This document shows, one piece after another, positions 21,615 to 21,640 of a stretch of DNA of 64,000 nt. A model generated the notes under the pieces. That model searched no databases, was not told the origin of the DNA, and saw only the letters and a program-made list of their open reading frames with translations. Origin of the DNA: Blastocladiella emersonii ATCC 22665 (Eukaryota > Fungi > Blastocladiomycota); NCBI GenBank assembly GCA_025594325.1, contig JANHCV010000008.1, forward strand, positions 1,116,001 through 1,180,000, written 5' to 3'. The position numbers and the translations under genes were made by a program. Each line of letters opens with the position of its first letter. Positions within the stretch are counted from its first letter, which is position 1.

Positions 21615-21640
21615 TGCCGCTGCCCTTAAGGGCAGCGGCA
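21615..21640. repeat. Terminal perfect palindrome TGCCGCTGCCCTT|AAGGGCAGCGGCA (left end)
   Basis: A 26-bp self-complementary sequence that forms the first 26 nt of the element. Confidence 0.97.

What the first reader, a model, noticed from the sequence alone, without database searches (positions are those of the whole stretch)
21615..21640. Both element ends are a perfect 26-bp palindrome centred on TTAA: candidate hairpin telomeres
Seen: each terminus is TGCCGCTGCCCTT|AAGGGCAGCGGCA. Inference: this is what a covalently closed hairpin end yields when it is nicked 13 nt from the apex, unfolded and filled in, which would also give the CA-3' end an rve integrase needs. Established: elements without pPolB or a terminal protein need another solution to end replication, and protelomerases are tyrosine-recombinase relatives acting on palindromes. 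Hypothesis: a hairpin-ended linear genome copied by the PrimPol-helicase, resolved by the recombinase and integrated by rve. I know no described PLV with this scheme, but I cannot search.
Basis: partly seen in the sequence, partly recalled or inferred. Interest (0 to 1): 0.88.

Follow-up and report, generated by a model that had tools for sequence, protein, structure and literature searches.

The report
Fold-back ends on a fungal provirus
A small DNA virus lying broken in the genome of a water-mould fungus ends at both tips in the same perfect 26-letter palindrome, which likely let its free DNA ends fold back into hairpins for copying, a kind of end already reported in 2026 for related viruses of a protist.

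Summary
A perfect 26-bp palindrome centred on TT|AA forms the exact tip of both 757-bp terminal inverted repeats of a 17.2-kb Polinton-like provirus (21615-38812). It sits between 5-bp target duplications in a host PIF1-like gene. A capsid fragment annotated in Blastocladiella emersonii matches at 100% over the matched stretches. The element encodes a double jelly-roll capsid, A32 ATPase, rve integrase, primase/SF2 helicase and a recombinase-like ORF, and no pPolB; three of these genes are broken.

The end type is not new. A 2026 preprint reports terminal palindromes next to TSDs in non-pPolB virophages and one PLV subtype, and proposes hairpin priming. This scan also noted such tips before, in two chytrid genomes and on another piece of this genome.

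A hairpin-based end is likely (0.55) but inferred. I obtained no ends of relatives, and the contigs show no fold-back joints. The protelomerase role is unsupported: the ORF matches neither resolvase nor integrase profiles, and only its motif pattern leans towards resolvases. The two tips are also direct repeats, so excision as a circle is a live rival.

The parts
21610..21614 (.). Left target-site duplication (CTCGA)
21615..21640 (.). Left terminal 26-bp perfect palindrome, axis between 21627 and 21628
   Evidence: single strand folds to an 11-bp stem with a TTAA loop, -15.1 kcal/mol
21615..22371 (+). Left terminal inverted repeat, 757 bp
   Evidence: one run assembles it as a contig of exactly 757 bp
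22478..23281 (+). ORF of unknown function, probably frameshifted
   Evidence: no Pfam hit
23385..23618 (+). Small Cys-rich ORF (77 aa)
   Evidence: no Pfam hit
24102..24866 (-). Probable minor capsid protein (254 aa), assigned by size and position only
   Evidence: no family hit
25188..26447 (-). Double jelly-roll major capsid protein (419 aa)
   Evidence: model pLDDT 78.5; Foldseek to PBCV-1 capsid E 3e-17; 69 homologues
26458..27282 (-). A32-like packaging ATPase
   Evidence: Pfam Pox_A32 E 4.5e-10
27308..28909 (-). ORF of unknown function (533 aa)
29497..31713 (+). Ser/Thr-rich repetitive ORF (738 aa), fibre-like by composition only
31710..32837 (-). rve integrase, broken by one in-frame stop at 32574-32576
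   Evidence: Pfam rve E 5.3e-9 when read with X at the stop
32856..34361 (-). Tyrosine-recombinase-like ORF (motifs only: R344, K379, K454-x-x-R457, H487, Y496), broken by one in-frame stop at 32946-32948 before the last two catalytic motifs
   Evidence: no profile hit
34487..37917 (-). Primase-polymerase plus SF2 (UL9/CyRepA1-like) helicase, split by a frameshift near 37036
   Evidence: Pfam PPL4 E 1.6e-4, below cutoff; CyRepA1 E 2.4e-13; one 1015-aa homologue matches both halves
38056..38812 (-). Right terminal inverted repeat, 757 bp
38787..38812 (.). Right terminal 26-bp perfect palindrome; also a direct repeat of the left one
38813..38817 (.). Right target-site duplication (CTCGA)
38818..39400 (-). 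Decayed host PIF1-like helicase gene interrupted by the element; it continues left of 21610

Best explanation
The 26-bp palindrome is the integrated virus's own tip at both ends, and it is likely the trace of fold-back (hairpin) ends that the free linear genome would use for copying in place of a terminal protein. Shown: the boundaries, TSD, TIRs, gene content and absence of pPolB. Inferred steps: (1) the free genome ends in a hairpin with its apex at TT|AA, either closed or re-forming; (2) the primase/SF2-helicase replisome, with a borrowed polymerase, copies through the apex and makes head-to-head junctions; (3) a nick just 3' of the CA that lies 13 nt past the axis on each strand, most simply by the rve integrase, leaves 3' ends ending in CA-OH that carry the whole self-complementary 26-mer; (4) rve joins these ends to host DNA with a 5-bp stagger, and repair fills in, giving the palindrome at both tips plus the TSD. 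The same staggered nick with snap-back could resolve dimers without a protelomerase, so the recombinase-like ORF is not needed to explain the sequence.
For: The palindrome lies exactly at both termini, inside the TSD and far beyond chance. No pPolB-sized ORF or hit is present, and a primase plus SF2 helicase is. TG...CA ends, a 5-bp TSD and an rve domain point to rve integration; in cryptophyte PLVs TSDs track rve and not YR (PMC12220804). Independent precedent: palindromes next to TSDs in all complete copies of four virophage subtypes and in one PLV subtype, preferentially with non-pPolB genes. A second, diverged copy exists in the same sample (241 differences in 1335 bp across rve and the recombinase ORF). 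In run X3 the shared TIR assembles as one contig of exactly 757 bp with no break at the apex, at depth 554 against 139-177 for single-copy stretches, consistent with that copy keeping the same tip. A retroviral integrase can cut a palindromic end-to-end junction internally (PMC1905944, abstract only).
Against: No hairpin was observed. Contigs from four runs of one sample show no strand-changing joint at the apex, which is weak because this copy is broken and contigs drop rare forms. No relative's ends were obtained: 8 viral, 2 metagenome and 1 genome scan gave 0 loci, so compensatory change is untested. The TIR depth ratio is lower in the other runs (X1 99 vs 56-57; X2 27 vs 8-11), the second copy's flanks were not seen, and the tool warns that depth is not copy number. 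One contig at depth 4.8 has an extra base at the apex (possibly an error). CA also ends at 7 and 17 nt past the axis, so CA alone does not set the register. No dedicated nickase was identified. The preprint's authors themselves offer accidental annealing as an alternative.
Confidence: 0.55

Rival explanations
1. The palindrome is a tyrosine-recombinase site. Because it is a perfect palindrome, the two tips are also 26-bp direct repeats. The recombinase-like protein would recombine them to excise a circle with one copy at the TIR-TIR junction, and rve would cut that junction at the two CAs to re-integrate. No hairpin is needed.
For: Left and right 26-mers are identical on the same strand. The layout 10+6+10 or 11+4+11 is near the size of recombinase core sites (recalled: dif 28 bp, loxP 34 bp). 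Since rve made this insertion, the second enzyme needs another job. YR acting on PLV inverted repeats has been proposed (PMC11296320). Resolvases and Cre-like recombinases are interconvertible on such junctions (PMC13221069, abstract).
Against: A fully symmetric spacer gives no directionality (established for loxP-type sites; recalled). The preprint's PLVs do not carry rve together with YR, yet subtype 4 has palindromes, so the end type does not appear to need this gene pair. No circle junction was seen in contigs (weak).
Confidence: 0.17
2. One reading: a covalently closed hairpin genome whose replicated junctions are resolved by the element's recombinase-like protein acting as a protelomerase, with rve making the separate CA nick for integration.
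For: The third motif is K-x-x-R, as in 7 of 9 protelomerases and 0 of 3 integrases examined. The distance from that Arg to the last His is 30 residues, against 28-33 in the 9 protelomerases and 22-23 in the 3 integrases. Phaeoviruses use a telomere resolvase on a palindromic site (PMC13236599).
Against: No hit to PF16684, which 3 of 3 control resolvases hit at E 9e-24 or better. hhalign probability is 0.7% against resolvases and 0.6% against integrases. No tblastn match in phages and no homologue found. The single-sequence model was unusable (pLDDT 34). Lys at that position is also common in topoisomerase IB (PMC3558466), and PLV or virophage recombinases were not in my control set. Protelomerases cut 6 bp apart, which cannot itself produce the 13-nt outer arm.
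Confidence: 0.15
3. The palindrome has nothing to do with hairpins. It is a symmetric binding site for a dimeric protein (integrase or origin-binding helicase), or a one-off fold-back repair accident fixed in an ancestor and copied to both ends by TIR homogenisation.
For: A single event would appear at both ends because the TIRs are 756/757 identical, so the two tips are not independent evidence. The preprint names accidental annealing as an alternative. The helicase belongs to an origin-binding family.
Against: The same placement recurs across unrelated subtypes with different lengths (52 nt in virophage subtype 5; 44 and 50 nt in unchecked scan notes), and it is associated with loss of pPolB.
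Confidence: 0.13

Closest known systems
Terminal palindromes of Halocafeteria seosinensis endogenous virophages (subtypes 1, 2, 5, 6) and PLV subtype 4 (bioRxiv 10.64898/2026.07.28.741278)
   Same: Palindrome inside the TIR next to the TSD; non-pPolB replication genes; rve integrase; hairpin-priming model proposed.
   Different: Fungal host; 26 bp against 52 nt in subtype 5; here a PLV-type element carries both rve and a recombinase-like ORF, a pair the preprint found only in virophages. The preprint proposes no resolvase step in the sections read. Its figures and supplements were not seen.
Polinton-like viruses with primase-helicase and tyrosine recombinase end modules (Gezel-14T, entomopoxvirus-associated PLVs, Tetraselmis S2x)
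   Same: Capsid, ATPase, TIRs, primase-helicase next to a YR near one end.
   Different: In the passages read no terminal palindromes are described; the Gezel-14T ends were not fully assembled and S2x ends are AT repeats. This element also has rve and a TSD.
Mid-GC EMALE virophages of Cafeteria burkhardae (PMC8547959)
   Same: Both rve and YR; TSDs mostly 3-5 bp.
   Different: Virophage capsid module with a protease; the word palindrome does not occur in the main text.
Hairpin telomere resolvase systems (phage N15 TelN, TelK, TelA, ResT; phaeovirus resolvase)
   Same: Palindromic junction; catalytic motif order resembling R-K-K-R-H-Y.
   Different: No profile match. Those sites lie internal in the dimer or circle and are not kept at the ends of an rve-integrated copy; the cut is 6 bp staggered.
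Parvovirus/AAV terminal resolution (recalled)
   Same: Nick opposite a terminal hairpin, unfolding and fill-in gives a palindromic end.
   Different: dsDNA double jelly-roll virus; no HUH Rep was found among the element's ORFs.

Membership tests
Polinton-like viruses | Double jelly-roll major capsid protein | tested here: met
Polinton-like viruses | A32-like packaging ATPase | tested here: met
Polinton-like viruses | Minor capsid protein | tested here: inconclusive
   254-aa ORF near the MCP, no family hit
Polinton-like viruses | 14-40 kb element with TIRs; pPolB often replaced by primase/helicase | tested here: met
   17,198 bp with 757-bp TIRs; definition
Polinton-like viruses | Placement in a named PLV cluster by MCP or ATPase phylogeny | not tested
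   no reference set of named PLV proteins was available
Polinton/Maverick | Protein-primed family B polymerase | tested here: not met
   no hit among the element's ORFs and no free stretch long enough
Virophages | Maturation protease and virophage-type MCP | tested here: not met
   no protease hit; MCP is 419 aa, and virophage MCPs rank low among fold matches
Halocafeteria-type palindrome-tipped elements | Palindrome within the TIR, adjacent to the TSD | tested here: met
Halocafeteria-type palindrome-tipped elements | Non-pPolB replication gene with rve integrase | tested here: met
Halocafeteria-type palindrome-tipped elements | rve belongs to the particular clades linked to palindromes | not testable with these tools
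Hairpin telomere resolvases | ResT/TelK catalytic domain (PF16684) | tested here: not met
   0 families at E up to 10, while 3 of 3 control resolvases hit
Hairpin telomere resolvases | Catalytic residues in order and spacing | tested here: inconclusive
   motifs present and spacing within the resolvase range, but one stop interrupts the ORF and only 3 integrases served as controls
Hairpin telomere resolvases | Cuts a palindromic junction 6 bp apart and seals hairpins | not testable with these tools
   needs an in vitro assay
Classical tyrosine integrases | Phage_integrase domain (PF00589) and H-x-x-R motif | tested here: not met
   no hit while lambda Int hit at E 7.5e-41; the motif reads K-x-x-R

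The most novel reading that the evidence does not exclude
A Polinton-like virus of fungi with covalently closed hairpin telomeres. A divergent protelomerase-like recombinase would resolve its replicated ends and could cut the provirus out of the chromosome at the two retained palindromes, while a retroviral-type integrase nicks 13 nt past the apex to integrate it. This would couple a hairpin-telomere system to rve integration in a small eukaryotic DNA virus.
Probability: 0.15. Interest if true: 0.8.

Novelty: new member of a known kind. Interest (0 to 1): 0.42.

Why it matters
How Polinton-like viruses and virophages without a protein-primed polymerase copy their ends, and how integrated copies get out again, is open. 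This element extends the palindromic-tip pattern from one protist to a zoosporic fungus with a clean, base-exact example. It makes three mechanisms directly testable on one short site: hairpin priming, circle excision between the two direct repeats, and protelomerase-type resolution. Having both rve and a recombinase-like gene is unusual for a PLV, so the second enzyme's job is a real question. The copy in this window is broken in three genes.

Tried and rejected
No whole genome was held, so other copies and solo palindromes could not be searched.

Searches for relatives' DNA gave 0 loci in 11 of 11 collection scans. In one search two stretches encoded an ATPase relative but no locus was returned. 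Three alignment queries were too divergent to run.

Homologue searches found nothing for the recombinase-like ORF or rve, and one protein for the helicase. The Atlas held neither query. The recombinase-like ORF gave no meaningful PDB sequence hit, and its single-sequence fold was unusable, so it was not searched. Rfam found nothing in the element. A virophage reference record was not in the collections, and one review was not held.

The absence of fold-back or circle joints in contigs carries little weight.

Rejected: that the outer arm is host sequence (the TSD, the host frame and the empty-site paralogues place it inside the element); chance; an assembly artefact (short-read contigs of three runs cover the left junction or the full TIR).

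Full report
Observation. The 26-mer occurs at 21615-21640 and 38787-38812 and nowhere else with up to 3 mismatches; 0 of 100 shuffles gave a match. It is the longest perfect palindrome in the window, the next having an arm of 9, and 0 of 2000 shuffles of the TIR exceeded 9. The two copies are the outer 26 bp of 757-bp TIRs that differ at one position. CTCGA is duplicated directly outside both ends. Removing the element and one duplication gives a continuous host frame related to PIF1 helicases, and paralogous host contigs cross the site without the element. The palindrome is therefore the element's true tip. Because the TIRs are near-identical, the two tips count as one observation.

The element. 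It is 17,198 bp at 52% GC, against 60-65% in the flanks. It encodes a 419-aa double jelly-roll capsid protein, an A32 ATPase, a probable minor capsid protein (position only), an rve integrase with one stop, and a primase plus UL9/CyRepA1-like SF2 helicase split by a frameshift. One homologue covers both halves as a single protein. There is no pPolB, protease or HUH hit among the 14 element ORFs scanned. It is a decayed Polinton-like provirus. An annotated B. emersonii protein matches the capsid at 100% over the matched stretches, and flanking genes look fungal.

The recombinase-like ORF. Read with X at its single stop, it shows R344, K379, K454-x-x-R457, H487 and Y496. It hits no matching family in Pfam, PHROGs or NCBIfam, while 3 of 3 control resolvases and lambda integrase hit their families. 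Profile comparisons were not significant for either class. K-x-x-R is shared with 7 of 9 protelomerases and 0 of 3 integrases, and the Arg-to-His distance of 30 lies in the protelomerase range (28-33) rather than that of the three integrases (22-23). This is a lead only: Lys is also typical of topoisomerase IB (PMC3558466), and no PLV recombinases were among the controls. Even the name tyrosine recombinase rests on motifs.

Other copies. Four runs from one sample hold the region. A second element, 241 differences in 1335 bp away, is present. In X3 the TIR forms one contig of exactly 757 bp at depth 554, against 139-177 for single-copy stretches, with no break at the apex; in X1 and X2 the ratio is lower, and the second copy's flanks were not listed. 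This suggests but does not show a shared tip. No strand-changing joint was seen. Eleven of 11 collection scans returned no relative's DNA, so compensatory change is untested. An unreviewed scan note reports a 26-letter palindrome at both ends of an element on another piece of this genome, and two notes report 44- and 50-bp palindromic tips in chytrid genomes. I could not check their sequences and do not count them as support.

Mechanism. With the axis at TT|AA, a hairpin end or a head-to-head junction has CA ending 13 nt past the axis; CA also ends at 7 and 17. A nick there on each strand leaves 26-nt self-complementary 3' ends finishing in CA-OH, the end chemistry that retroviral-type integrases transfer (established knowledge). 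Strand transfer with a 5-bp stagger and repair give exactly the observed structure (inference). HIV-1 integrase cleaves a palindromic end junction internally (PMC1905944, abstract), though that junction's geometry differs (recalled). A protelomerase cut is 6 bp staggered and cannot make the outer arm, so that model needs a second nick in any case. The two tips are also direct repeats, which allows excision of a circle by recombination; this rival predicts solo palindromes and circle junctions. My odds: hairpin-based end without a required resolvase 0.55, recombinase site and circle 0.17, full protelomerase scheme 0.15, binding site or accident 0.13.

Prior art. bioRxiv 10.64898/2026.07.28.741278 (abstract, sections 6, 7, 10 and passages; figures and supplements not seen) reports palindromes within TIRs next to TSDs in virophage subtypes 1, 2, 5, 6 and PLV subtype 4, linked to non-pPolB genes, and proposes hairpin priming. 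I found it before consulting the scan's notes. PMC11296320 (passages) proposes YR action on PLV inverted repeats and dimer resolution at poxvirus hairpin ends. PMC13236599 (passages) gives read evidence for a resolvase site in phaeoviruses. PMC8547959 (passages) reports rve with YR in virophages. PMC12220804 (passages) finds that pair rare in PLVs and there due to inserted retrotransposons. Passages of 10.64898/2026.06.19.733378, PMC13533422, 10.1101/2022.07.28.501842, 10.1101/2025.10.09.676808 and PMC12747079 describe no palindromic PLV tips; PMC13221069 was seen as abstract only. In eight searches (only the top listings were seen) I found no paper showing a protelomerase in a PLV. The library lacks most subscription papers, and one key review was not held.

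Verdict. The feature is real and cleanly bounded, and it is a new fungal member of an end type described in 2026. The hairpin role is likely but unproven. The protelomerase step, the only part that would be new, has motif-level hints and failed the profile tests. Interest 0.42.

Noticed in passing
window 21615-38812, second copy in runs X1-X4: A second element of this family is in the same sample: about 82% identical over rve and the recombinase-like ORF, with a replaced stretch of about 230 bp at 33821-34045 and 10 more letters at the primase/helicase junction, which would put both parts in one frame. Two annotated B. emersonii capsid fragments on different contigs agree with two copies. Whether its rve and recombinase ORFs are open was not visible.
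   Followed up: partly
proteins P0004 and P0071-P0084: A second PLV family in B. emersonii, with 26 capsid proteins in one cluster, and a relative in Allomyces macrogynus (P0016). A search for Blastocladiella together with polinton found 0 papers.
   Followed up: partly
window 21240-21614 and 38813-39950: The target is a decayed PIF1-like helicase gene of a high-copy repeat family, with many paralogous contigs; possibly Helitron-related (inference).
   Followed up: partly
window 16600-20100 and 41400-62700: Several families of paralogous ORFs in tandem, 60-80% alike, up to 8 copies, with no Pfam hit.
   Followed up: no
window 28938-29140: Tandem array with a unit of about 42 bp inside the element, between two ORFs.
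   Followed up: no
window 21745-21765 and 22090-22113: Two smaller inverted repeats inside the TIR (arms 8 and 7) and repeated short motifs; possible origin or promoter signals.
   Followed up: no
window 385-494: Tandem repeat with a 22-bp unit in host DNA.
   Followed up: no
run X4 contigs, table 7: Loose ends carry a lox-like adapter sequence (recognised from memory); this is a library artefact and not part of the element.
   Followed up: no
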